DNA of 64,000 nt from an uncultured bacterium (GTDB lineage Bacteria > Verrucomicrobiota > Kiritimatiellia > RFP12 > UBA1067), in contig CACZCD010000001.1 in NCBI GenBank assembly GCA_902779565.1, forward strand, positions 3,929 through 67,928. Direction: 5' to 3'. Positions 1,588 through 45,440 of this stretch are shown here, piece after piece. Position 1 is the stretch's first letter. Every line of letters begins with the position of its first letter. Both the position numbers and the translations under genes were made by a program. Below the pieces are notes generated by a model. That model saw only the letters and a list, made by a program, of their open reading frames with translations, did not search any database and had not been told where the DNA came from.

Positions 1588-2831
1588 TTCTTCACCTTCT
1601 TCCGGATGGCCACGAACTGTCCGGGATCCTTCGCCCGCGCGACGATATGTTCCGCATAGGTCTCGCTGTAGCTCTTGCCGTCCACCATCTCGTCGCTACG
1701 CCCGTTGTAGCGCTTCAGCGCCGTCTGCCAATCATCGAATGTACCGGAGGGACGCTTTGACGCCGGCTGGCCGCTCGCGCCAAAACCCTTGCGCGTCAGG
1801 AACCGGATGGCCGCGCGGATATTCTGCTCCGCCGTTCCTTCATTTCGCTTCGAGGGTTTCGTGAGACCCAGCGAAGACTTCGCATCGCTCCAATCTCCCG
1901 GCACATTGACCTGCTGCGGATCCACATCCCACGCCGCCAACGAACGGGTGTCGCGCCCCCCCGTCTCCTCGATCATGTGCGACTTGACGAGCGCCGAGGT
2001 CAACGCGGGAATCTTCTTCCCCTGCGCAGGGGTCGCGCCGGCCCAGTCCGTGCGATTGCGGTTGAACTCGTCCACGCACCGCACGATGAGCGCATCATGC
2101 TCCTGATAGCGGTCATCCTCAAATCCCCGGAAGATCGGTACGCGCCGCACGCGCCATTCGGCGGCGCGATCCACGATGGCGCCCGGCGGCGTGGGCGCAG
2201 TCTCTGTCTCGCCCGTGCGATGTGCCGGTGGGGTCACGCGTCCCGCGTGACCGCCGGGCGGTGTCTTGCCGGTGGGCTGCCTTTTGCCGACGGGCGGCGC
2301 CTTTCCGGCGTTGGCCGCCATCCACCGCTTGTGGAAACGGCGGTAGAGGGCTTCGACCTTCTGAAGCGCGGGGCGCTCCTCCTTCTTCACGAACCGGTCG
2401 TCGAAGTAGAGATAGCCATACTTGTCGAATGCGAACCGGTTGTTCATCACATTGATCTCGAACGCGACGCCAGCCTTGGACATCGGCTCCTCCTCGATGC
2501 CCTGCGCCTTCAGCTTCGCCAAATAGACCGCACGGCGCTCCCCTGATTTCTGGATCACCTGCATCACCTCGGTGAACGCCTGTGCAATCTCCAACCATTC
2601 AGCCGGTGCAATCTGCAGCGAGGTCGCCGGCAACCCCTTCAACCCTTCCCCCATGGGCTGGAAGTTGACGGCCGCATTCATCAACGCGCCCAGGACATCC
2701 TGCGGCACGGACGGCGCCGGCGCACGTGCTGGTTTCGGGGCGGTGCCTTGCGGTGCCGCCTCAGCGCAGAACGTCAGGACGACCAAAGTGGTCGCCAGCC
2801 CAAAACAGAACTTGGAAAGATTGTTTGCCAT
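1584..2831 (-). CDS. Secreted protein with a possible C-terminal lysozyme-like/lytic-transglycosylase-like domain
   Basis: 415 aa with a hydrophobic signal-like N-terminus (FGLATTLVVLTFCAEA). The C-terminal part (SHMIEETGG...DPQQVNVPGDW...IRAAIRFL) loosely resembles SLT/lysozyme-like folds, so the function is tentative. Confidence 0.6.
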   Translation of the reverse strand: MANNLSKFCFGLATTLVVLTFCAEAAPQGTAPKPARAPAPSVPQDVLGALMNAAVNFQPMGEGLKGLPATSLQIAPAEWLEIAQAFTEVMQVIQKSGERRAVYLAKLKAQGIEEEPMSKAGVAFEINVMNNRFAFDKYGYLYFDDRFVKKEERPALQKVEALYRRFHKRWMAANAGKAPPVGKRQPTGKTPPGGHAGRVTPPAHRTGETETAPTPPGAIVDRAAEWRVRRVPIFRGFEDDRYQEHDALIVRCVDEFNRNRTDWAGATPAQGKKIPALTSALVKSHMIEETGGRDTRSLAAWDVDPQQVNVPGDWSDAKSSLGLTKPSKRNEGTAEQNIRAAIRFLTRKGFGASGQPASKRPSGTFDDWQTALKRYNGRSDEMVDGKSYSETYAEHIVARAKDPGQFVAIRKKVKK

Positions 2832-2858: not shown

Positions 2859-4589
2859 TCATTTCAACCGGCCGATGAACGAAATCCGGCCGGCGCCCGT
2901 TGGCTTCTCGTAGGCGAGCGGATAGTTGGCGAGCGCCGCCAGCGGCGAGGCGGCCGAGGTGAGGGAGGGCTGACCCGTTGCATCCTTCTGGAAAGCCTTC
3001 GCATATTCCGCCAGCACCAGATAGTCCGTCGCCATGCCGTTCTCAATCTTCTTCGTGCTGCGGAACATCGCGAACCCATCGCCGCCATCCACAAGTGTAA
3101 AGCCATTCCCGACAACACGATAGACGCCGTGCGGATCAAGCGGAACGAACTTCCCCTCCTTGCGGTCGTAAACCTGCACGTTCTTGACGCGATAGACGCC
3201 GTTCGACGGTCCAGCCACCCATGCACCCGTCGCATCCACCTGTATGGCGGACTTCACCGTCACGTCCACCGCATACTTGAGACCGGCGACCTGAAGAAAT
3301 CCGCCGAACTCCGCCTCGCCCCCAACCTGCGCACCGAACTCAAGCGCGTCGAGAATCTGCCGCCCGTTCGCCTCCACCACGCCGATGTCCCCGCCGAACG
3401 GCTGCACTGTGCGGAGCGCCTTGAGCGTCACGTCGCCCGCTGGGATGTCCGCGCGCACGTTGCCGCCGTTCATGAGCGCACAGTCGCACGCGAAACCATA
3501 CCGCTCGTTCGCGCACCACCACGCGGCATCCGCCGCGAAATCACCCGCCGAGCAATCTTCCTTGCGCGCCAGACGGTCCGTCGTGCCCGGCACATAGGCG
3601 CAGAGCGCGGTGGGGGCGACCGCCACGCGCTTCCCCAGCTGACGCGCCACCTTGTCGGCCAGCTCCTGTTCGAGACGGGCCACCGCCGGCTTCTTCTCGC
3701 CGCGCGGATACACCGTACCGGCGGCGACGCACCGTCCATCCTCAAACGTCAACGAGCCCAAGATGCCGAGGTAGCTGCCACTCTGCGTGAGCACCACCTC
3801 TTGCCCCACCGCGTTACGCACGCGCATGCCGGTATACTCGGAATGCGAATGGCCATCGATGAACGCAACCACGTTCGTGGTGTGCGCAATCACGTCCAAT
3901 GACCGATAACCCGCACAGTCGGGCGACACGCCCATGTGACCGAGCAGGATCGTGTAGTCCGCGTGCGCGGCAGCTTCGTCCACGGCCTGCTGCACGGCGG
4001 CATAGAGCGCGTCGCCACGCTCTCCCGCAATGAAATCGTACGCGCGCCAACTCCCCGAGGGATCGAGGAAGGTTGACGGTTTCGCCGAGACGAGCGTGGT
4101 GGGCGTGGTGACGCCGACGAACGCCACGCGCACCGTCCCCGCCGTCACCACCACATACGACGGCAGCACGCGCGTCCCCGGATCGTCAGGTGCCTTTCGG
4201 TGGATGAAGTTGCAGCAGGTGTAGCGGAACGTCGCTCGACGGACATTGTCAAACATCGTCTGCATGCCATAGTCGAACTCGTGGTTGCCGAGCGTCGCCA
4301 CGTCGTAGCCGGCGGCGTTCATGATGCCGATCACGCTGCGGCCCGAATCGTATCCGCCGAGGGCGGTGCCCTGCACATGGTCGCCCGCATCCACCAGGAT
4401 CACATGTTCACCAGCCGCCTCAAGGCGATCCTTTTCCGCCGCAATCGCCGAGAACGCGACAAGCCCGTCGTCAATGTGGGAATGTGTGTCGTTCGTGTGC
4501 AGCACCGTCACACGCGCGGCTACAGCCGTGCACGACACAAGCATCGCCGCCACGACGATCATTCCATTCATTTTTCTTTCTTTCATCAT
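2859..4589 (-). CDS. Secreted 5'-nucleotidase / UshA-family bifunctional metallophosphatase
   Basis: LHTNDTHSH, DAGDHVQGT and GNHEFDYG metallophosphatase motifs plus a C-terminal 5'-nucleotidase domain. I place the start at ATG 4589 (MMKERKMNG..., signal peptide, AAGGAG 6 nt upstream). The ORF-track start at 4745 would translate the tandem repeats. Confidence 0.9.
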   Translation of the reverse strand: MMKERKMNGMIVVAAMLVSCTAVAARVTVLHTNDTHSHIDDGLVAFSAIAAEKDRLEAAGEHVILVDAGDHVQGTALGGYDSGRSVIGIMNAAGYDVATLGNHEFDYGMQTMFDNVRRATFRYTCCNFIHRKAPDDPGTRVLPSYVVVTAGTVRVAFVGVTTPTTLVSAKPSTFLDPSGSWRAYDFIAGERGDALYAAVQQAVDEAAAHADYTILLGHMGVSPDCAGYRSLDVIAHTTNVVAFIDGHSHSEYTGMRVRNAVGQEVVLTQSGSYLGILGSLTFEDGRCVAAGTVYPRGEKKPAVARLEQELADKVARQLGKRVAVAPTALCAYVPGTTDRLARKEDCSAGDFAADAAWWCANERYGFACDCALMNGGNVRADIPAGDVTLKALRTVQPFGGDIGVVEANGRQILDALEFGAQVGGEAEFGGFLQVAGLKYAVDVTVKSAIQVDATGAWVAGPSNGVYRVKNVQVYDRKEGKFVPLDPHGVYRVVGNGFTLVDGGDGFAMFRSTKKIENGMATDYLVLAEYAKAFQKDATGQPSLTSAASPLAALANYPLAYEKPTGAGRISFIGRLK

Positions 4590-4605
4590 AGTCTCCTTGA
4601 CGGTC

Positions 4606-4640
4606 AGTTGGTAGTTGATAGTTGGTGGTTGATTTGTCTC
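4606..4640 (-). repeat. Heptamer tandem repeat forming the 5' leader of the nucleotidase gene (mRNA sense ACCAACU/AUCAACU x4)
   Basis: The plus strand reads AGTTGGT AGTTGAT AGTTGGT GGTTGAT TTGTCTC. This is near-identical in architecture to 25361-25400, upstream of the esterase gene. Confidence 0.8.
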
Positions 4641-4705
4641 ACGCAGAGGCGCAGAGGACGCAGAGAGAAATTTCGGAGTTGTGACTCCGCTCAAAAAATA
4701 ACATG

Positions 4706-4777
4706 GATTCCACCTTTCCACTTTTCCACCTTTCCACCATTCCACCTTTCCACTTTTCCACCTTTCAACCTTTCAAC
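4706..4777. repeat. Nine exact-length 8-bp tandem units NNTTCMAC (minus-strand sense GTKGAANN)
   Basis: gaTTCCAC ctTTCCAC ttTTCCAC ctTTCCAC caTTCCAC ctTTCCAC ttTTCCAC ctTTCAAC ctTTCAAC. The U32 stop codon (4765-4767) lies inside unit 8. Confidence 0.9.
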
Positions 4778-7427: not shown

Positions 7428-7652
7428 CGCGGGAAAGGCGCTTGTGCTTGTGTTTGTTGCCAGTCCGTGGCCGCGTCCGTTGTAGCCCGTTGCCTGTCCG
7501 TTAGGCGTCCGTATTAGCCCGTGTGAAGTCCGTAATCTGCCTGAAGCCTGTCCATGATATGTCCGTGGGTAGTCCGTGGTGTGTCCGTCTATGGGAGGGC
7601 GAGTGTCCTCGTGAAACGCCTCAAGTCCGTAATGCGTCCTTCTCGTATCCGT
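7428..7652. repeat. Array C: GTCCGT (complement of ACGGAC) hexamers at about an 11-bp period, plus a terminal block that is an inverted copy of 23224-23287
   Basis: Cores start at 7463, 7475, 7485, 7496, 7507, 7517, 7528, 7539, 7550, 7561, 7572, 7583, 7605, 7625, 7636 and 7647, with degenerate positions at 7594 and 7616. Segment 7428-7490 equals the reverse complement of 23224-23287 except for one T indel. Confidence 0.9.
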
Positions 7653-25360: not shown

Positions 25361-25433
25361 AGTTGATAGTTGATAATTGATGATTGGTGGTCTAGTCTCA
25401 ACCTTTCCACTTTTCCACCTTCCCACTTTTAAC
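25361..25433. repeat. Composite intercistronic repeat: heptamer leader (AGTTGAT x4-5) plus octamer units (NNTTCMAC x5)
   Basis: The plus strand reads AGTTGAT AGTTGAT AATTGAT GATTGGT GGTCTA then GTCTCAAC CTTTCCAC TTTTCCAC CTTCCCAC TTTTAAC. It abuts the AI-2E stop at 25435 and the esterase RBS. Confidence 0.85.
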
Positions 25434-33297: not shown

Positions 33298-33660
33298 CTA
33301 CCAGGAGCGGTAATAGACCGGCGGAGGCGGCGGGGGCGGCGGCGCCACCACAACCGGGGCCGGGGAATAGACCGGGGTGCTATAGACCGGCGTGCTATAG
33401 ACCGGTGTGCTATAAACCGGCGTGCTATAGACTGGCGCAGGCGCCACGACAACTGGCGGACGAACGATGCTGTTCACGATCGCCGCAGTGCCGAGAGCGG
33501 CTCCCGCAATGCCCCATCCGCAATGGTGGTGATGATGATGGTAGCCATGGCCACCATGGAACCTAGGACCGCCATGGAACCCACCATGGAACCCCGGACG
33601 GGCGAACATCACACCTGCCGTTGCCACGACTGCCAGCATTACTATCAGTTTCTTGTTCAT
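33298..33660 (-). CDS. Small secreted His-rich / Pro-rich repeat protein
   Basis: 120 aa. Signal peptide, GFHGGFHGGPRFHGGHGYHHHHHHC, a hydrophobic segment, (PVYST)x5, and a polyproline run. Confidence 0.7.
   Translation of the reverse strand: MNKKLIVMLAVVATAGVMFARPGFHGGFHGGPRFHGGHGYHHHHHHCGWGIAGAALGTAAIVNSIVRPPVVVAPAPVYSTPVYSTPVYSTPVYSTPVYSPAPVVVAPPPPPPPPVYYRSW
33362..33435. repeat. 15-bp tandem repeat (NGTGCTATAGACCGG, 4 full units plus 1 partial) encoding PVYST units
   Basis: Read directly inside the His-rich protein gene. The repeat is in frame (15 bp equals 5 codons). Confidence 0.9.
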
Positions 33661-33792: not shown

Positions 33793-36700
33793 TTAGGGCT
33801 TTACGCGCACGGTTTCAGCGGTTGAGTGTGCCGTGAACTCGGGCGCGTACATGCATTGGATCGTCGCAAGCCCGCCGATAAACACGCCGCGCTGCTGCAC
33901 GCGATACGACGTCTCAAGAACGAACACGCCCTTGTTGAGACAGTCGATGTAGTAGTGCGTGGCCGTATCCTTCGTGGACTGATAATAACCCACGCCATCG
34001 CGCCAGCGGTACGACGACAGCACATCCTCCGGCTCCGCGCACGCAGGCCGCTCGTCAGAGAGATGCACGAACTCGTACGTGCGGTCGCTCGTGATCTCAA
34101 GCCGCGCCACGATCTCGTCGCCCGGCTCAAGCACGCCATCGATCGACGTGAGCCGTGTCCCATCCGCGCCCTTCACCTTCTTGTAGTACTTCTTCTCCAC
34201 CCGCAACTCCTTCGGCTCGTGCGCGCGTACCTTAAGGACATCCTCAAAGTACGTCCAGTGGACGCCGCCCCACGCAACGCCCTTCTCGCCCGCACCCGTA
34301 AACGTGATCTCGCCCATCTCGGGCCTGATCTGCGCCGCGGCGTAGCGGTGCGAATACATCCCCGTGCCCGCCTCGGCGTTCGCCACCGGCACCTTCTCGC
34401 CCGCCAGCGTGACCTCGGCCAGCTTGTCGCCCGCCAGCAGATCCGTCCCGCCGCCCAGAAGGAGCGCATAGATCGCGTCCACCGTCGCGGCGGTCGTCGT
34501 CCAATCCTGCGTCTGCTTCTGCTTCAGGAGCCACACGTTGCAGGCATCTGCGCTCTCCTCGTCGCGCGTCACCTCGCGGAACGCCTCAATGATCAGCGCC
34601 TGCGTCGAGACGGGCGCGGCGAACACGCTGCACGAGAAGAAGGACGACCTCTTCCAGTATAGGCCGAGTTCCTCTGAAAGGACGCCCCGCTCCTTGATCG
34701 ACGCCATGATCTTCCGCGCGAACTTTTCCTCGCCCATGCGCTTCAAGGCGATGGCCGCCAGCGCCTGCGAGCTGAGGCCGAAGTCCGTCCACTCCTCCTT
34801 GAGATGCTTGACGAAGAGCTTTGCCGGCTGCGCATCCTTCGCGGCGGCGACGCCCTTGAACGTATGGAGGTAGAGCCAGCGAATGTCGAAGCCATCCACA
34901 TGGAACTTGATGCCCAGTCTCTTCGCCTCCTTGAGCCGCTCCTTCACATCCTCAGAAACGAACGCGTCAAGTGCTTCCACCGCCTCCGCAAAGAAGTCGG
35001 GATACGTCCTCTGCGCCAGGAAGTTGAGCCGCGCGAACCCCGTCAGGATATAGAGCGAGATGCCGGGCGCGGACGGCCCGCCCGGGAACCACGGCCAGAG
35101 TCCGCCGCCACACCGCGCGAGTCGCAACTTCTCAAGGCACTTTTCCTGCTCACCCGCCAGACGGTCGGCGGCGAAGAGTTCACCAAGCCGCGCGCGGGCT
35201 GCGCTTTCGTGCGCCGCCTCACGGACCCACGGCGTCGCTTCAAGCGCAATCGCCTTGAGGTGTTCATCCGTCTCAAGCGGGCTCTTCAGCGTTTCGCCGC
35301 CCGCCGCCTTCCACGCGTCGAACGTGGCGCGGATGCGCGGATCGGCGTTTGCGATGTACTGTCCCAGCGCGTTCGCATAGTAGCGGCTGAACGTCTGCTC
35401 GCAGCATTCGTGCGGGAACTCCATCAGGTACGGAAGCGACAACACCGCGTACCACGCCGGACGCGACACGGCGCGCACCGTGAGATCCTGATGGCGGACC
35501 GTCTCAGACCCCTTGCTCGCCAGCAGGTTCTCGAACCGAAACGATTTCGTCGCCGCGCCACGCACGTTGAGCTGCACGGCCTCGCGCACCATCACGCGGC
35601 GCGCCAGCACCGGCAGCACGCCCTCTTCGCCGTCCGCGAACGCCGCGCCCTTCGCGCGCGCGACATATTTGAGATAGCCGCACCCATCCGGGATCCGCAA
35701 CGGGAACTCGAACGTCTTCGATTCGTGCGGAACCAGGTTGAAAGGTTGAAAGGTTGAAGCGTTGAAAGGTTGAAGCGTTGACGGGTTGGCATTTTCAGCA
35801 GAACTTTTCAACTCTTCAACCTTCAACTCTACAACTCCCTGCTGCGGCGCGTCCTCGGTGTTCGTCACCTTGACGGCAAAGAAGAAGTTGTCACCTTCGC
35901 GCACGAAACGCGGTGCGTTCGGTTCGCACATGAGCGGCTTCGTCGTCACGATCTCGTTGTTGCGGAAGATGTCGCCGCGAAGCGCGTTGTCATGCGCGAC
36001 CATCAGGAACTTCCAGCCCGTGAGCGCGTCCGGCACCGTGAACGAGAACGACACCTTCCCGTCCGCATCCGTCTCCAGGTTCGGGAAGAAGAACGCCGTC
36101 TCCTTCAGGTTCGTGCGCGGCGGCGCATCCGGTTCCTTCTCGGACTTCGCGGATGGTGCAGCACCACACACCGCCACCGTTTCTTCTTCCAAGACGCACC
36201 TTTCATTCATCACGCCCATCCCGGCCGCGGCGGACTTGCAGACCATGCCGCCCCGTCTTCGCAGTCTGCCATACTCGTACAGCGACCGCCACGAAGGCCA
36301 TCGGAAGTTGGAGAACCACGTGGACTTGCTTGGGAACCGACCGCCGAGATCCATCAGCTCCGTGGTCGTATTCTGGATTGCCGGACTTCCGAGCCAGCGC
36401 GTCCAGGGCGTAAAGTGACTTGAAAAACCGAGCGACACATCATGCCATTTGTACGCATCGAGCGAACGGTCGTACATGAAAGCGAGCACTTCCGCAGGGC
36501 CCGACACCTTGAACGTCCATATTTCCTTGTTGCCGGGATTGAGCTTGCTCGTCAGGTGCTCCGCCGTGATATCCAGATACTTGTTGTCCCACGGCACATT
36601 CACGCAGGTGCTGTCGCAATAGATGCGGTTCTCGCGCACGAAGGTGGTCTCAATCCTCACTTCGCCGCGATGCTCCTCCTGGATCGGCAGCTCGAAAAAC

Positions 36701-43523: not shown

Positions 43524-45440
43524 TCACAACGCGTCTGTCATGAATGTATGCGCCACCGTCCAAGGCGCGCTCTTGATCCGTTTCATGCGCATCAAAAGCG
43601 AAAGGCGGTGGCGTTCAAGCTCCGCATCGCCCCGTGCCGGCAGTTCGCCGAGACGGCGTCGGATCGCATCGCCCCATAGCCGCCGCAGAAAATCCTCAAG
43701 AATGCGCGCTGGGTCCAACTCGGAAAGCGATGCGCGCTCCCGCGACAGGAACACGCCCTCCAAAAGCGCACCATCCGCCGCGGAAAGCGTCCCGCGGAGT
43801 TCCGCCATCGCCTGCTCGTTCCCGCGCGTCTCCTGCACATAGGCGTGAACGAACCCGCACGTCAACGCATGCTGGAAAATCGTGTCGGGCGCATAGGATT
43901 CCAGCATCTCCGTCAGCTGCCCATCCGGTCCGTTTCCGAACAGAAACTCCATGAGTGCCATCTCTGTCCGAGGCGGCGGATTGTTCTCCGGAGCCGCAGC
44001 GTCTTCCGAGGGTTGAGAGTTGGGAGTTGAGGGTTGAGGGCTTGCCGCGCCGAAGCCTTCGGCGGAGGCGGGTTGCGTACTTCCTCTTCCCTCTTCCCTC
44101 TTCCCTCTTCCCTCTTCCCTCTTCCCTTTCTCTAGATCCTCCTCAAGGGCGGCGACCGGTATCTTCAGAAGTGTGGAAGCCTCCTGCAGCAAACTGGCGC
44201 GCATGACCGCGCTCGAACTGCACCTGACCAACGCCAAGACAGCGCGCGCCGCGCGGGAGATCGCATCGTAGGAGTCAGGTGTCTGCTCCATCGCGCGGGC
44301 GATGCGTACTTGAAAGGCGACCAGCGACTCAGCCGAATCAAGGCAGGCCTGAAACGCCGCCGGACCTTTCGTGCGAAGCAGAGAATCTGGGTCTTCGCCC
44401 GGCGGAAGACTTGCCACGCGCACCAACAATCCGGCGGCCAGCATCTCGCCGCCCGTGCGAATCGCCGCCTTCTGTCCAGCGGCATCGGCGTCAAAGACCA
44501 GCACGGCGGCATCGGCGACCTTCTTCAGGATCTGGACATGCTCCTTCGTGAAGGCCGTCCCCTGCGACGCGATCGCACGGGAGAATCCCGCCGCATGGCA
44601 GCGGATCACATCGATCTGCCCTTCGCAGACGATGGCCTCGCGAACGGGCTTGGCGTTGGCGATCTTCCCCGCCGCAAGATCGAACGCATAGAGAACATCC
44701 GACTTCCGGAAGATGAGCGTCTCGGGCGAATTGACGTACTTGCCGCCGCGCATCTTCGTCTTATCCGTCTCAAGCGTCCGTCCCGAGAACGCGATCACGC
44801 GTCCAGACCGGTCACGGATCGAGAACATGACGCGTCCGGCGAACGGCGAGTACCAGCGTCCGCCCGGATACTTCGGCGGACGCAGCACGCCGGCCGCCTC
44901 AAGCTCTTCGGTGGTGAAATGATGCTTCTCCGCCCATTTGAGCATCGCCTCGGCCTGCTGCGGCGCGTAGCCGATCTGGAACTGCTCCGCGATCTCGTCC
45001 GGGATGTCGCGCGACGCGAGATAGTTGCGCGCACGCGCCGCCTCAGCGGCCGTCTTGAGGCAACGCCGGTAGAACGCCGCCAACTCGGCGTGGAGCACAA
45101 GTTGGCGCTTGCGCGCGGCCGCTTGCGGATCGCTATTCGTCTCCTCGATGGTGATGTTCGCCGCCGCCGCCAGCTTCTTCGCCGCCTCCACGAAGCCCAG
45201 CCCCTCGTACTTCATCACGAACTTGATCACGTCGCCGGACTCGCCGCAACCGAAGCAGTGGTAGAATCCCTTCGCCGGCTGGATGTTGAAACTCGGCGTC
45301 TTTTCATGATGAAACGGGCAGCAGGCCTTGTACGACCCACCTGCCCGTTTCACTTGGATCCCGTAGCTGGCGATCAAATCTGCAAGGTCCGTACGGGCCT
45401 TGATCTCTTCGATCGTCTGCTCCGAAATGCCGAAGGCCAT
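43524..45440 (-). CDS. dnaG: DNA primase
   Basis: Zn ribbon CPFHHEKTPSFNIQPAKGFYHCFGCGESGD, a Toprim domain (EGQIDV...VFDADAAG), and a C-terminal helicase-interaction region. Confidence 0.95.
   Translation of the reverse strand: MAFGISEQTIEEIKARTDLADLIASYGIQVKRAGGSYKACCPFHHEKTPSFNIQPAKGFYHCFGCGESGDVIKFVMKYEGLGFVEAAKKLAAAANITIEETNSDPQAAARKRQLVLHAELAAFYRRCLKTAAEAARARNYLASRDIPDEIAEQFQIGYAPQQAEAMLKWAEKHHFTTEELEAAGVLRPPKYPGGRWYSPFAGRVMFSIRDRSGRVIAFSGRTLETDKTKMRGGKYVNSPETLIFRKSDVLYAFDLAAGKIANAKPVREAIVCEGQIDVIRCHAAGFSRAIASQGTAFTKEHVQILKKVADAAVLVFDADAAGQKAAIRTGGEMLAAGLLVRVASLPPGEDPDSLLRTKGPAAFQACLDSAESLVAFQVRIARAMEQTPDSYDAISRAARAVLALVRCSSSAVMRASLLQEASTLLKIPVAALEEDLEKGKREEGRGKREEGRGSTQPASAEGFGAASPQPSTPNSQPSEDAAAPENNPPPRTEMALMEFLFGNGPDGQLTEMLESYAPDTIFQHALTCGFVHAYVQETRGNEQAMAELRGTLSAADGALLEGVFLSRERASLSELDPARILEDFLRRLWGDAIRRRLGELPARGDAELERHRLSLLMRMKRIKSAPWTVAHTFMTDAL
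44012..44126. repeat. Heptamer tandem repeats in the dnaG linker: (GTTGRGR)x4, palindrome GCCGAAG-C-CTTCGGC, (TCTTCCC)x5
   Basis: Read directly. It encodes EKGKREEGRGKREEGRGSTQPASAEGFGAASPQPSTPNSQPSE in the primase frame. Confidence 0.9.

What the first reader, a model, noticed from the sequence alone, without database searches (positions are those of the whole stretch)
4606..4777. Composite intercistronic element: octamer array starting in the upstream stop codon, then a heptad-repeat CA-rich leader, before a secreted nucleotidase gene
Reading along the mRNA (minus strand), the U32 gene ends inside (GTTGAAAG)2(GTGGAAAG/AAAG/AATG)7, which is nine exact 8-bp units at 4706-4777. Next come a small hairpin (CGGAG-tcacaa-CTCCG) and three CCTCTGCG-type octamers (mRNA sense, written CGCAGAGG on the plus strand, 4641-4668). 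Then comes a leader made of heptads ACCAACU AUCAACU ACCAACU (4606-4640), directly before the AAGGAG RBS. The purine-rich GGA-containing units and the downstream CA-rich units are partly complementary (GUUGA with UCAAC, GGUGG with CCACC). Possible roles include long-range pairing that gates the RBS, binding of an RNA-binding protein (repeated GGA is the CsrA/RsmA recognition core), or an unstructured CA-rich translational enhancer. All of these are inferences. The same two-part architecture recurs at 25361-25433.
Basis: partly seen in the sequence, partly recalled or inferred. Interest (0 to 1): 0.55.

Follow-up and report, generated by a model that had tools for sequence, protein, structure and literature searches.

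The report
Hypervariable short-repeat filler between two genes
The flagged stretch is a real but strain-specific patchwork of 7- and 8-base tandem repeats filling the gap between two genes of an uncultured gut Kiritimatiellia bacterium; it belongs to the known but still unexplained class of bacterial heptamer repeats near start codons, and it is not a folded RNA switch.

Summary
Nine in-register octamers start in the U32 stop codon. They are followed by a small hairpin, three CTCTGCG units, four CAAC heptads, AAGGAG and the ATG of a 5'-nucleotidase lipoprotein gene. A twin lies at 25361-25433.

The element is not a conserved regulator. Strains with 92-97% identical flanking proteins carry only octamers (L110), a different foldback (L022) or unrelated DNA (L025), and the twin site is empty in L108 and L110. 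In the same strains the rpoB leader is nearly invariant.

The two arms pair no better than shuffles (z +0.14), the RNA folds no better than shuffles (z +0.23), and Rfam finds nothing.

The arrays belong to a lineage-enriched population of 7-8 nt repeats: 10.9 per 100 kb here, 1.6 in other Kiritimatiellia, 0 in unrelated gut DNA. These change by whole units. They also sit in frame in DnaG and A2M, and A2M is frameshifted in two sister genomes.

CAACTAY-type heptads lie sense-oriented against the start codon in seven spacers, flip strand with the genes, and go with more accessible start regions (p=0.028).

Closest known: TAACTGA heptamers (Beggiatoaceae) and Xanthomonas GGGAATC arrays. Verdict: new member of a known kind, moderate interest.

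The parts
4765..4767 (-). TGA stop codon of the Peptidase_U32 gene, lying inside the second GTTGAAAG unit
   Evidence: Pfam
4706..4777 (-). Purine-rich, C-free octamer array: (GTTGAAAG)2 then seven GTGGAAAR-type units. The GAAAGG/AAGG core is the same as the local Shine-Dalgarno core. The first units are the native K-L-K codons of U32.
   Evidence: The array is present at the same site as (GTTGAAAR)~10 in L110 and as a 3-unit remnant in L022. SD cores are tabulated.
4690..4705 (-). T-rich connector CCATGTTATTTTTTGA
   Evidence: private to this strain
4674..4689 (-). Small hairpin CGGAG-TCACAA-CTCCG followed by AAATTTCTCT; a weak terminator-like site
   Evidence: 2 terminator-like sites found in the region against 1.0 +/- 1.2 expected, so not significant
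4641..4668 (-). Three CTCTGCG-type units ending in CTCTGCGTG. They resemble one arm of the CGCAGAG foldback elements seen whole in sister genomes.
   Evidence: Whole foldbacks are seen at L104 1330-1480 and in the L111 Rce1->PseudoU spacer. No second copy occurs in the window.
4606..4640 (-). G-free heptad array AATCAAC CACCAAC TATCAAC TACCAAC (CAACTAY family), in sense orientation and ending 7 nt before the SD
   Evidence: The 15-mer CCACCAACTATCAAC is shared with the SASA leader of L109. Family census.
4584..4598 (-). AAGGAG Shine-Dalgarno (4598-4593) and the ATG ATG start of the 5'-nucleotidase lipoprotein gene. This is the only part of the spacer conserved in L022.
   Evidence: the alignment resumes at CGTCAAGGAG
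25361..25433 (-). Twin cassette between the AI-2E transporter stop and the SASA esterase start: about four GTGGAAAR octamers, GTTGAGACTAGA, then CCACCAA TCATCAA TTATCAA CTATCAA CT, then AAAAAGGA
   Evidence: It is filled, with other copy numbers, in L109 and empty in L108 and L110.
35735..35837 (-). Complementary octamer arms (GTTGAAGA-type and CTTTCAAC-type) read in frame inside the alpha-2-macroglobulin gene; they grew out of native codons (the QPF motif)
   Evidence: z -2.77; z -3.8
44008..44127 (-). (GGGAAGA)6, a GC hairpin, then (CCTCAAC)4, read in frame in the DnaG linker
   Evidence: z -2.16; z -5.0

Best explanation
The 190 nt between the U32 peptidase gene and the 5'-nucleotidase gene are an intercistronic spacer filled by fast-evolving simple-sequence DNA. 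They are not a folded riboregulator.

The spacer has three modules of different age.
- (a) A purine-rich, C-free octamer array. It grew by replication slippage out of the last U32 codons (AAG TTG AAA) and the SD-like GAAAGG core. It occurs at this site across the species-level clade, with different unit sequence and copy number.
- (b) A weak hairpin plus what looks like half of a CGCAGAG foldback element. This module is private to this strain.
- (c) A G-free CAACTAY heptad array abutting the SD. It belongs to a dispersed family that, in this clade, is found sense-oriented right in front of start codons.

Shown here:
- The arrays change by whole units between strains.
- Whole cassettes are present or absent at the same site.
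- The two arms do not pair.
- Array polarity follows the direction of transcription.

Inferred:
- The effect on the mRNA is passive. A C-free stretch followed by a G-free stretch can hardly fold on itself or onto the RBS. The filler therefore acts as a structure-poor leader that leaves the nucleotidase start accessible.
- Selection removes arrays in the opposite orientation, or in places where they would do harm.
- Copy-number change may tune expression slightly, but no sequence-specific regulator is needed.
For: Not conserved at this locus:
- 17 relatives at 65-82% U32 identity have no array, and the nucleotidase gene is not even the neighbour.
- L110 (U32 95%, nucleotidase 92% identical) has only (GTTGAAAR)~10 running to the SD.
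- L022 (94%) has a different 280-bp foldback plus three octamer remnants.
- L025 (97%) has unrelated upstream DNA.
- Window and L022 align at about 93% up to ...AAGTTGAAA and again from CGTCAAGGAG onward, with nothing alignable between.
- Internal control: the ~150-nt rpoB leader is almost identical in the window, L102 and L104, while the DNA just upstream of it differs completely.

No fold:
- z +0.23 for the whole spacer.
- Arm-to-arm duplex z +0.14.
- Allowing G-quadruplexes adds less than 1 kcal/mol.
- No Rfam match at gathering threshold or at E<=1.

Slippage behaviour:
- L106 and L107 differ by exactly two CTCCTCCA units.
- The DnaG linker carries different 7-mers and copy numbers in five strains.
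- The SASA cassette has 4+4 units in the window against about 5+8 in L109.

Lineage enrichment: 10.9, 1.6 and 0 arrays per 100 kb in the window, other Kiritimatiellia and unrelated gut DNA respectively.

Cassette gain or loss does not follow strain relatedness.

Polarity and position:
- Seven spacers have sense heptads 0-25 nt from the start codon.
- Arrays occur on both strands within L109 and within L111, each matching the local gene direction.

Accessibility: median opening energy is 5.6 vs 10.1 kcal/mol, Mann-Whitney p=0.028.

Precedent: heptamer SSRs are the commonest long SSR class in bacteria and are attributed to polymerase slippage (Mrazek 2007, as cited in PMC4679880; PMC4692102).
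Against: - The heptads of independent loci share a core (CAACTAY/CGACTAA), and all are in sense orientation. That is more order than random slippage seeds predict and would also fit a binding site.
- Four of the seven array-preceded genes have no SD, as if the array replaced it.
- The flagged gene's own opening energy (7.8 kcal/mol) is only mid-range.
- The accessibility test is post hoc on 10 vs 56 genes. The three rSAM-locus arrays, which have complementary arms, are among the least accessible.
- About 190 nt around the A2M repeat are identical in L106 and L107 despite about 6% flank divergence. That hints at constraint or transfer rather than neutral drift.
- The census rests on about 0.5 Mb of fragments, not on whole genomes.
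Confidence: 0.55

Rival explanations
1. The CAACTAY heptads (with or without the purine arm) are binding sites for a trans-acting factor. Candidates are ribosomal protein S1, a cold-shock-type protein, or a dedicated regulator. In this reading they form a post-transcriptional or translation-initiation network, as was proposed for the TAACTGA heptamers of Beggiatoaceae.
For: - Seven spacers carry sense-oriented heptads abutting the start codon.
- Four of them have no SD.
- The heptads share an AACT/CAAC core, and their polarity follows transcription.
- The 15-mer CCACCAACTATCAAC is shared between two unrelated leaders.
- Close parallel in PMC4679880. Modest reporter effects of start-proximal heptamers were measured in Nostoc.
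- In viral contigs CAACTAY arrays lie near gene starts more often than random positions do: 7/21 vs 7.1%, p=0.0004.
Against: - The same gene has or lacks the array in strains about 90% identical, and copy number and unit sequence drift.
- No gene-class pattern is visible among the seven downstream genes.
- In the viral sample the antisense control is nearly as high (5/21), so orientation specificity does not generalise.
- No candidate protein could be examined.
Confidence: 0.2
2. The bipartite cassette (purine arm plus heptad arm) is a small non-autonomous mobile element that inserts between a stop codon and the next RBS. The flagged spacer would then be a native octamer array into which such a cassette and a CGCAGAG foldback have inserted.
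For: - Clean filled and empty alleles exist at AI-2E->SASA. The central junction GAAAGGTTGRGACTAGRCCACCAA is shared by the window and L109, and the distribution does not follow strain relatedness.
- GTGGAAAR octamers and CCACCAACTATCAAC occur at both window loci, whereas L110 has only GTTGAAAR at the U32 site.
- True insertion polymorphism of foldbacks is seen in L104 and L022.
Against: - No terminal inverted repeats: the arms are not complementary.
- No target-site duplication is visible.
- Copies differ in unit number and sequence.
- At the A2M site the array demonstrably grew out of native codons rather than being inserted.
- Homologous recombination between strains could produce the same filled/empty pattern.
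Confidence: 0.12
3. Contingency locus: unit-wise slippage changes spacer length or reading frame, and so switches or tunes expression of the neighbouring genes (phase variation).
For: - Whole-unit copy-number differences between strains.
- In L106 and L107 the A2M gene is split by 3 and 5 CTCCTCCA units, whereas 4 would be in frame.
Against: - At the flagged site the array lies after the U32 stop and upstream of the SD, so slippage changes neither a reading frame nor any recognisable promoter spacing. No sigma-70-like promoter was found.
- Essential DnaG also carries such arrays.
- MAG consensus sequences cannot show within-population switching.
Confidence: 0.07
4. RNA switch by long-range pairing, or CsrA/RsmA binding to the GGA octamers, or a G-quadruplex, triplex or terminator role for the purine array.
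For: - Repeated GGA and GG tracts are present.
- A weak hairpin plus a U-rich tail lies at 4689-4665.
Against: - Folding and duplex energies equal those of shuffles.
- The G4 option adds less than 1 kcal/mol, and only G2 tracts are present.
- L110 has GTTGAAAR units without GGA at the same site.
- The terminator-like count is not above expectation.
- Rfam is empty.
Confidence: 0.05

Closest known systems
TAACTGA heptamer direct repeats of marine Beggiatoaceae, some Cyanobacteria and Bacteroidetes (MacGregor 2015, PMC4679880)
   Same: - Tandem heptamers in forward orientation within a few nucleotides of start codons.
- They often overlap or follow the stop codon of the upstream gene.
- A canonical SD is often missing.
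- They occasionally lie inside ORFs at protein peripheries.
- No pattern in downstream gene function, and the function is unproven.
- The unit shares the AACT core with CAACTAY/CGACTAA.
   Different: - The unit is not TAACTGA, and several unit variants coexist here.
- The organism belongs to another phylum (Kiritimatiellota).
- The heptads are usually preceded by a purine-rich, SD-like arm, giving a bipartite cassette.
- The flagged copy keeps a strong AAGGAG SD.
- Presence or absence between close strains is documented here.
GGGAATC / GGGGA(C/T)T heptamer arrays of Xanthomonas and Nostoc, including convergent inverted pairs (Rehm et al. 2015, PMC4692102)
   Same: - Lineage-enriched heptamer SSRs, mostly between co-directional ORFs and close to stop or start codons.
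- 70-75 inverted pairs per genome.
- Length and sequence vary between sister species while the site is kept.
- They are transcribed, and no function has been found.
   Different: - Those units have G3-4 tracts and form G-quadruplexes in vitro. The flagged octamers have only GG tracts and no predicted G4 gain.
- The flagged arms are not complementary.
- Many different units occur here rather than one dominant unit.
Long simple sequence repeats (5-11 nt units) of prokaryotes, and cyanobacterial STRR heptamers (Mrazek 2007 as cited in PMC4679880; STRR from my own knowledge of Mazel et al. 1990)
   Same: - Head-to-tail 7-8 nt units.
- Sporadic phylogenetic distribution.
- Whole-unit indels attributed to polymerase slippage.
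- Mostly intergenic.
   Different: - 7- and 8-nt arrays here are also tolerated in frame in essential (DnaG) and large (A2M) proteins.
- Polarity strictly follows transcription in the sample examined.
Rickettsia palindromic elements and prokaryotic MITEs inserted in frame in genes (review PMC10969869; RPE from my own knowledge of Ogata et al. 2000)
   Same: - Hairpin-forming repeat DNA that is read in frame inside protein-coding genes (the DnaG and A2M copies).
- Insertion polymorphism of foldbacks between strains (L104, L022).
   Different: - The arrays are not copies of one consensus element.
- No TIR or TSD was found.
- The A2M array arose from native codons.
- The flagged intergenic copy has no complementary arms.

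Membership tests
Long simple-sequence repeats (7-8 nt unit SSR arrays) | Head-to-tail copies of a short unit beyond chance | tested here: met
   TRF gives 8.4, 2.9 and 4.0 copies for the three arrays. My period scan finds 4 arrays against 0 in five shuffles.
Long simple-sequence repeats (7-8 nt unit SSR arrays) | Whole-unit copy-number polymorphism among close relatives | tested here: met
   - U32 site: 9 units (window), about 10 (L110), 3 (L022).
- SASA site: 4+4 units vs about 5+8.
- A2M site: 3 vs 5 units, an exact 16-nt indel.
Long simple-sequence repeats (7-8 nt unit SSR arrays) | Lineage-specific enrichment | tested here: met
   10.9 per 100 kb in the window, 1.6 in other Kiritimatiellia (306 kb), and 0 in 465 kb of unrelated gut DNA.
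TAACTGA-type start-proximal heptamer repeats | The unit is TAACTGA | tested here: not met
   The units are CAACTAT, CAACTAC, CAACTAA, CGACTAA and CAACTGA. Only the AACT core is shared.
TAACTGA-type start-proximal heptamer repeats | Forward orientation within a few nt of the downstream start codon | tested here: met
   Seven spacers, with heptads 0-25 nt from the ATG, all sense-oriented, on both strands of L109 and L111. In the flagged copy the array ends 7 nt before the SD and 19 nt before the ATG.
TAACTGA-type start-proximal heptamer repeats | Canonical SD usually absent between the repeats and the start | tested here: inconclusive
   Absent in 4 of 7 spacers. The flagged copy has AAGGAG.
G-quadruplex-forming heptamer repeats (GGGNATC type) | At least four G3+ tracts per array | tested here: not met
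   The flagged octamers have only GG tracts, and G4-aware folding gains 0.9 kcal/mol. The feature is met by the DnaG (GGGAAGA)6 array and the L007 (GGGGAAC)8 array.
Inverted-pair repeat arrays / MITE-like foldback | Complementary arms able to form a hairpin | tested here: not met
   The flagged copy has z +0.14 and the twin z +1.22. The A2M and DnaG copies do meet it (z -3.8 and -5.0).
Inverted-pair repeat arrays / MITE-like foldback | Target-site duplication and shared termini between copies | tested here: inconclusive
   No TSD is seen at the filled versus empty SASA site. The copies share only array units and one 15-mer.
CsrA/RsmA-regulated leader | A-N-GGA motifs, typically in hairpin loops and overlapping the SD | tested here: not met
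   The octamers read G-U-GGA and are unstructured. The orthologous L110 array has no GGA. The motif definition is from my own knowledge.
CsrA/RsmA-regulated leader | A csrA gene in the genome | not testable with these tools
   Only the 64-kb window and fragments are available. tblastn against the 0.95 Mb held finds nothing.
Known cis-regulatory RNA (riboswitch, leader, thermometer) | Match to a curated covariance model, or a fold better than chance | tested here: not met
   Rfam gives nothing at gathering threshold or at E<=1 in this region. Fold z is +0.23.
Intrinsic terminator | GC-rich stem followed by a U-run | tested here: inconclusive
   CGGAGTCACAACTCCG plus AAATTTCTCT passes the simple scan. 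But 2 sites were found against 1.0 +/- 1.2 expected, and the tail is weak.

The most novel reading that the evidence does not exclude
CAACTAY heptad arrays, usually paired with an SD-like purine arm, are self-propagating intercistronic cassettes. They would serve as structure-free, partly SD-independent ribosome landing pads, or as sites for a dedicated RNA-binding factor, in gut Kiritimatiellia. That would make them a convergent counterpart of the TAACTGA arrays of Beggiatoaceae. Natural filled and empty alleles in strains about 90% identical would then give a direct handle on what start-proximal heptamer repeats do.
Probability: 0.2. Interest if true: 0.65.

Novelty: new member of a known kind. 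Interest (0 to 1): 0.4.

Why it matters
Heptamer arrays next to bacterial start codons have been described since the cyanobacterial STRR sequences, and again in Beggiatoaceae, Xanthomonas and Nostoc, without an accepted function.

What this case adds:
- The phenomenon extends to Kiritimatiellota.
- In this clade the polarity of the arrays follows transcription rather than replication.
- The same site can be filled, empty or differently filled in strains about 90% identical.
- The same repeat chemistry invades protein linkers (DnaG) and can break a large gene (A2M).

Practical consequences:
- It warns annotators that repeat-rich 'leaders' of this kind are not conserved regulators.
- Genes split at such arrays in MAGs may reflect slippage.

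Tried and rejected
- **Long-range pairing:** whole-spacer RNA folds and arm-to-arm or arm-to-RBS duplexes were compared with shuffles. None was better than chance for the flagged copy or its twin.
- **G-quadruplex:** G4-aware folding gave a negligible gain.
- **Known RNA families:** Rfam at gathering threshold and at E<=1 gave only sub-threshold miRNA-precursor look-alikes on the A2M hairpin.
- **Promoter and terminator scan:** no promoter, and no excess of terminator-like sites.
- **Exact-protein look-up:** the ATG at 4589 found nothing, and the ATG at 4586 found only the same strain.
- **Conservation in GTDB relatives:** the site is not syntenic there.
- **'The A2M repeat is a foreign in-frame insertion' (RPE-like):** rejected. 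Orthologues have a native segment of the same length, and the repeated motif is the native QPF motif.
- **'All copies are one mobile element':** rejected. Units differ between loci and between strains at the same locus.
- **'CAAC heptads always precede starts':** the strict CAAC search showed many copies inside genes or far from starts. The association holds only for the CAACTAY/CGACTAA intergenic subset.
- **Viral-contig test of orientation preference:** arrays are enriched near gene starts, but the antisense control is similar.
- **csrA and hfq search in the held DNA:** nothing found, which is uninformative.
- **Second copy of the CTCTGCG arm in the window:** none found.
Full report
**What is there.**
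Read on the minus strand, the Peptidase_U32 gene (Pfam) ends ...QKLKG*. Its TGA (4767-4765) lies inside the second unit of an in-register array of nine octamers at 4777-4706: two GTTGAAAG units, then seven GTGGAAAR-type units. After the array come:
- a T-run;
- a 5-bp hairpin with a 6-nt loop, which the scan counts as 6 pairs with a 4-nt loop (4689-4674);
- three CTCTGCG-type units (4668-4641);
- four CAAC heptads (about 4634-4606);
- AAGGAG (4598-4593);
- the ATG of a Metallophos/5_nucleotid_C protein whose N-terminus reads as a lipoprotein signal.

A period scan finds four strong arrays in the window and none in shuffles.

**It does not fold.**
- The 211-nt RNA folds no better than dinucleotide shuffles: z +0.23, with 122 of 200 shuffles at least as stable. 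The twin also gives z +0.23.
- Duplex energy between the octamer arm and the heptad arm equals that obtained with a shuffled heptad arm, with z +0.14 for the flagged copy and +1.22 for the twin. The RBS region gives the same result.
- Allowing G-quadruplexes changes the energy by less than 1 kcal/mol.
- Rfam has no match at gathering threshold or at E<=1.
- No sigma-70-like promoter was found, and terminator-like sites are not in excess.

The 'partial complementarity' is simply a C-free sequence facing a G-free one.

**Organism and conservation.**
U32 relatives identify a gut or rumen Kiritimatiellia lineage. In 17 relatives at 65-82% identity there is no array after U32, and the nucleotidase gene is not adjacent. 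Closer strains are decisive:
- L110 (U32 95%, nucleotidase N-terminus 92% identical) has a pure (GTTGAAAR)~10 array from the U32 stop straight to GAAAGGAG and the start. It has no hairpin, no CTCTGCG units and no heptads.
- L022 (94%) ends U32 at ...QKLK*. It carries an unrelated 280-bp foldback, and only GGTTGGAAGGTTGAAAA remains before the SD.
- L025 (97%) has unrelated upstream DNA.

Window and L022 align at about 93% up to AAGTTGAAA and again from CGTCAAGGAG onward, with nothing alignable between. So the octamer array is a site-stable but sequence-unstable feature of the species-level clade, seeded in native K-L-K codons. The rest of the 'composite' is private to one strain.

As a control, the ~150-nt rpoB leader is nearly invariant in the window, L102 and L104, while the DNA just upstream of it is completely different in each.

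**The twin site behaves the same way.**
AI-2E->SASA is filled in the window (about 4 octamers and 4 heptads) and in L109 (about 5 and 8). The two share the central junction GAAAGGTTGRGACTAGRCCACCAA. The site is an empty 18-19-nt spacer in L108 and L110. The four strains are 89-93% identical in the flanking genes, and the closest pair (L108 and L109, 92.9%) differ in state. At least two gain, loss or transfer events are therefore needed.

**A lineage-wide repeat population.**
- Period 7-8 arrays occur at 10.9 per 100 kb in the window, 1.6 in other Kiritimatiellia and 0 in 465 kb of unrelated gut DNA.
- Two window copies lie in frame inside genes, in the DnaG linker (44008-44127) and in a variable loop of alpha-2-macroglobulin (35735-35837). 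There the arms are truly complementary (fold z -2.2 and -2.8; duplex z -5.0 and -3.8).
- The DnaG linker between ALEEDLEKG and SEDAAAPENNPPP is hypervariable among proteins about 90-98% identical overall. At the DNA level it carries different 7-mers and copy numbers in each strain.
- The A2M repeat is not a foreign insertion. Orthologues have a native segment of the same length, and the repeated peptide is the native QPF motif.
- In L106 and L107 the same A2M site has 3 and 5 CTCCTCCA units, an exact 16-nt difference. Both counts split the gene, and 4 units would be in frame.

These are the signatures of unit-wise slippage.

**What survives of the leader idea.**
Curating the spacers of the sister loci by their public gene calls shows CAACTAY/CGACTAA-type heptads in sense orientation 0-25 nt from the downstream start in seven spacers:
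- U32->5'-nucleotidase
- AI-2E->SASA
- DUF6930->SASA
- DUF481->rSAM
- HisKA_3->response regulator
- Rce1->pseudouridine synthase
- tRNA-synt_2->ACP

These are five or six independent loci, because the two SASA leaders may be orthologous and the rSAM-locus arrays are a different unit type with complementary arms.

Further points:
- The heptads are usually preceded by a purine-rich arm that starts at or just after the upstream stop codon.
- Four of the seven have no SD between the array and the ATG.
- Within L109 and within L111 arrays occur on both strands, each matching the local gene direction. The polarity therefore follows transcription, not replication. The window alone could not separate the two, because its GC skew and gene direction coincide.
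- The octamer core GAAAGG/AAGG equals the commonest SD cores of these genomes, which are AAAGG, AGGAG and AAGGA.
- Start regions behind arrays cost less to open: median 5.6 vs 10.1 kcal/mol, one-sided Mann-Whitney p=0.028, n=10 vs 56. The G-free leaders lie at 2.9-7.8, the complementary-arm rSAM arrays at 12.7-19.9, and the flagged gene at 7.8.
- In an independent sample of 22 CAACTAY arrays from viral contigs, a long-ORF start follows within 25 nt in 7 of 21 usable arrays, against 7.1% of random positions (p=0.0004). The antisense control is 5 of 21, so arrays sit at gene boundaries there without a clear orientation preference.

**Interpretation.**
The best-supported reading is a slippage-driven, strain-specific mosaic that fills an intercistronic spacer and acts at most passively. 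A C-free stretch followed by a G-free stretch cannot fold, so it keeps the RBS open, and only harmless orientations survive. Shown and inferred steps are separated in the Best explanation section of this report.

The main rival is a sequence-specific factor that binds the heptads, as proposed for TAACTGA repeats. It is favoured by the shared core, the strict sense orientation and the SD-less cases. It is disfavoured by the filled and empty alleles of the same gene.

A mobile-cassette origin is compatible with either reading.

**Comparison with the literature.**
- Heptamers are the commonest long SSR class in bacteria and are attributed to polymerase slippage (Mrazek 2007, as cited in PMC4679880).
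- TAACTGA heptamers of Beggiatoaceae lie in forward orientation just upstream of starts, often overlap the upstream stop, and often lack an SD. S1, Csp and CsrA were proposed as binders without any test.
- Xanthomonas GGGAATC arrays form 70-75 convergent pairs per genome and vary in length between sister species at conserved sites. No function has been found.
- In Nostoc, deleting start-proximal heptamers had modest, context-dependent reporter effects.

The flagged element is thus a new member of this known, unexplained kind, in a new phylum and with its own units.

**Side finding.**
ACGGAC hexamers phased at 11 nt form arrays at 23016-23247 (+), 22615-22695 (+) and 7463-7583 (-). None occur in shuffles.
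- The 265-nt array is 100% identical in L109, although coding DNA of the two strains is about 90% identical. The hairpin just upstream shows compensatory changes.
- The two window paralogues keep the phased hexamers and an identical ~75-nt tail, but differ in the spacers between hexamers.
- The RNA is predicted to be unstructured (z +0.28).

This conserved multi-site element fits the A-N-GGA idea, or a one-site-per-helical-turn DNA array, far better than the flagged octamers do. It deserves its own analysis.

Noticed in passing
window 23016-23247 (+), 22615-22695 (+), 7463-7583 (motif on minus strand); L109 6101-6332 (-): ACGGAC-type hexamers phased at 11 nt form arrays of 19, 7 and 11 copies, and none occur in 20 shuffles. 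The 265-nt array is 100% identical between the window and L109, although their coding DNA is about 90% identical. The two window paralogues share the phased hexamers and an identical ~75-nt 3' tail but differ in their spacers. The RNA is predicted to be unstructured (z +0.28), and there is no Rfam match. It could be a multi-site protein-sponge sRNA (A-N-GGA sites) or a DNA array with one site per helical turn.
   Followed up: partly
L106 5880-5970 and L107 5870-5970 (same site as window 35735-35837): The alpha-2-macroglobulin gene is split into two overlapping ORFs at a CTCCTCCA octamer array. L106 has 3 units and L107 has 5 (an exact 16-nt difference), and 4 units would restore the frame. About 190 nt around the repeat are identical although the flanks differ by about 6%. 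This is either phase-variation-like slippage or a MAG consensus of a mixed population.
   Followed up: partly
window 44008-44127; L102 11300-11500; L103 4390-4435; L104 11310-11375; L105 2215-2330: The linker of the essential primase DnaG is a hotspot of in-frame 7-nt arrays. Unit sequence and copy number differ in every sister strain, giving peptides such as GNGERG, TRNPEPE and TQNSKLE.
   Followed up: yes
L104 1330-1480; L111 about 1900-2070 (minus strand); L022 2680-2940: Foldback or MITE-like elements show true insertion polymorphism. One type has CACGCAGAGACGCAGAGAG arms and sits between dtd and rpoB in L104 but not in the window. Another has doubled GCCACAAAGAACAGGAGAAGCAGGAGA arms and sits in the U32->nucleotidase spacer of L022.
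   Followed up: partly
L105 5040-5210 and 5410-5463: Nested complementary arrays flank a ~200-bp unique segment: GTTGAGGG/GGTGAAAG-type arrays on one side, AACTCAACCC/CTTCACC-type arrays on the other, and an inner GTTTGAGAG/TCAAAC pair. No known RNA family matches the segment.
   Followed up: partly
L109 1480-1568: A bipartite cassette, (AGCGGACAGARGAT)x3 followed by (CTATCAA)x4, is read in frame inside a radical-SAM/B12-binding gene. The product is 511 aa there, against 492 and 504 aa in L108 and L110.
   Followed up: no
window 22852-22975: A CA-rich degenerate repeat tract (TCCTCCAATCCACCAC...) lies about 270 nt downstream of an AraC-family gene. It is followed by a hairpin plus T-run (GATGTTCATGG...CTGAACATCGGTTTTTT), just before the ACGGAC array.
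   Followed up: no
window 33367-33437: A 15-nt tandem repeat (ATAGACCGGCGTGCT x4.7, 89% matches) is the highest-scoring TRF array in the window. Its context was not examined.
   Followed up: no
L112-L136 (IMG/VR contigs): CAACTAY x3 or longer arrays occur in 25 viral contigs of 21-66% GC, including giant-virus MAGs, with up to 24 units. A third of them are followed within 25 nt by a long-ORF start.
   Followed up: partly
L007 8039-8098: A (GGGGAAC)8 array is read in frame inside an 857-aa ORF of a more distant Kiritimatiellia/Lentisphaerae MAG. The unit resembles the G-quadruplex-forming heptamers of Xanthomonas and Nostoc.
   Followed up: no
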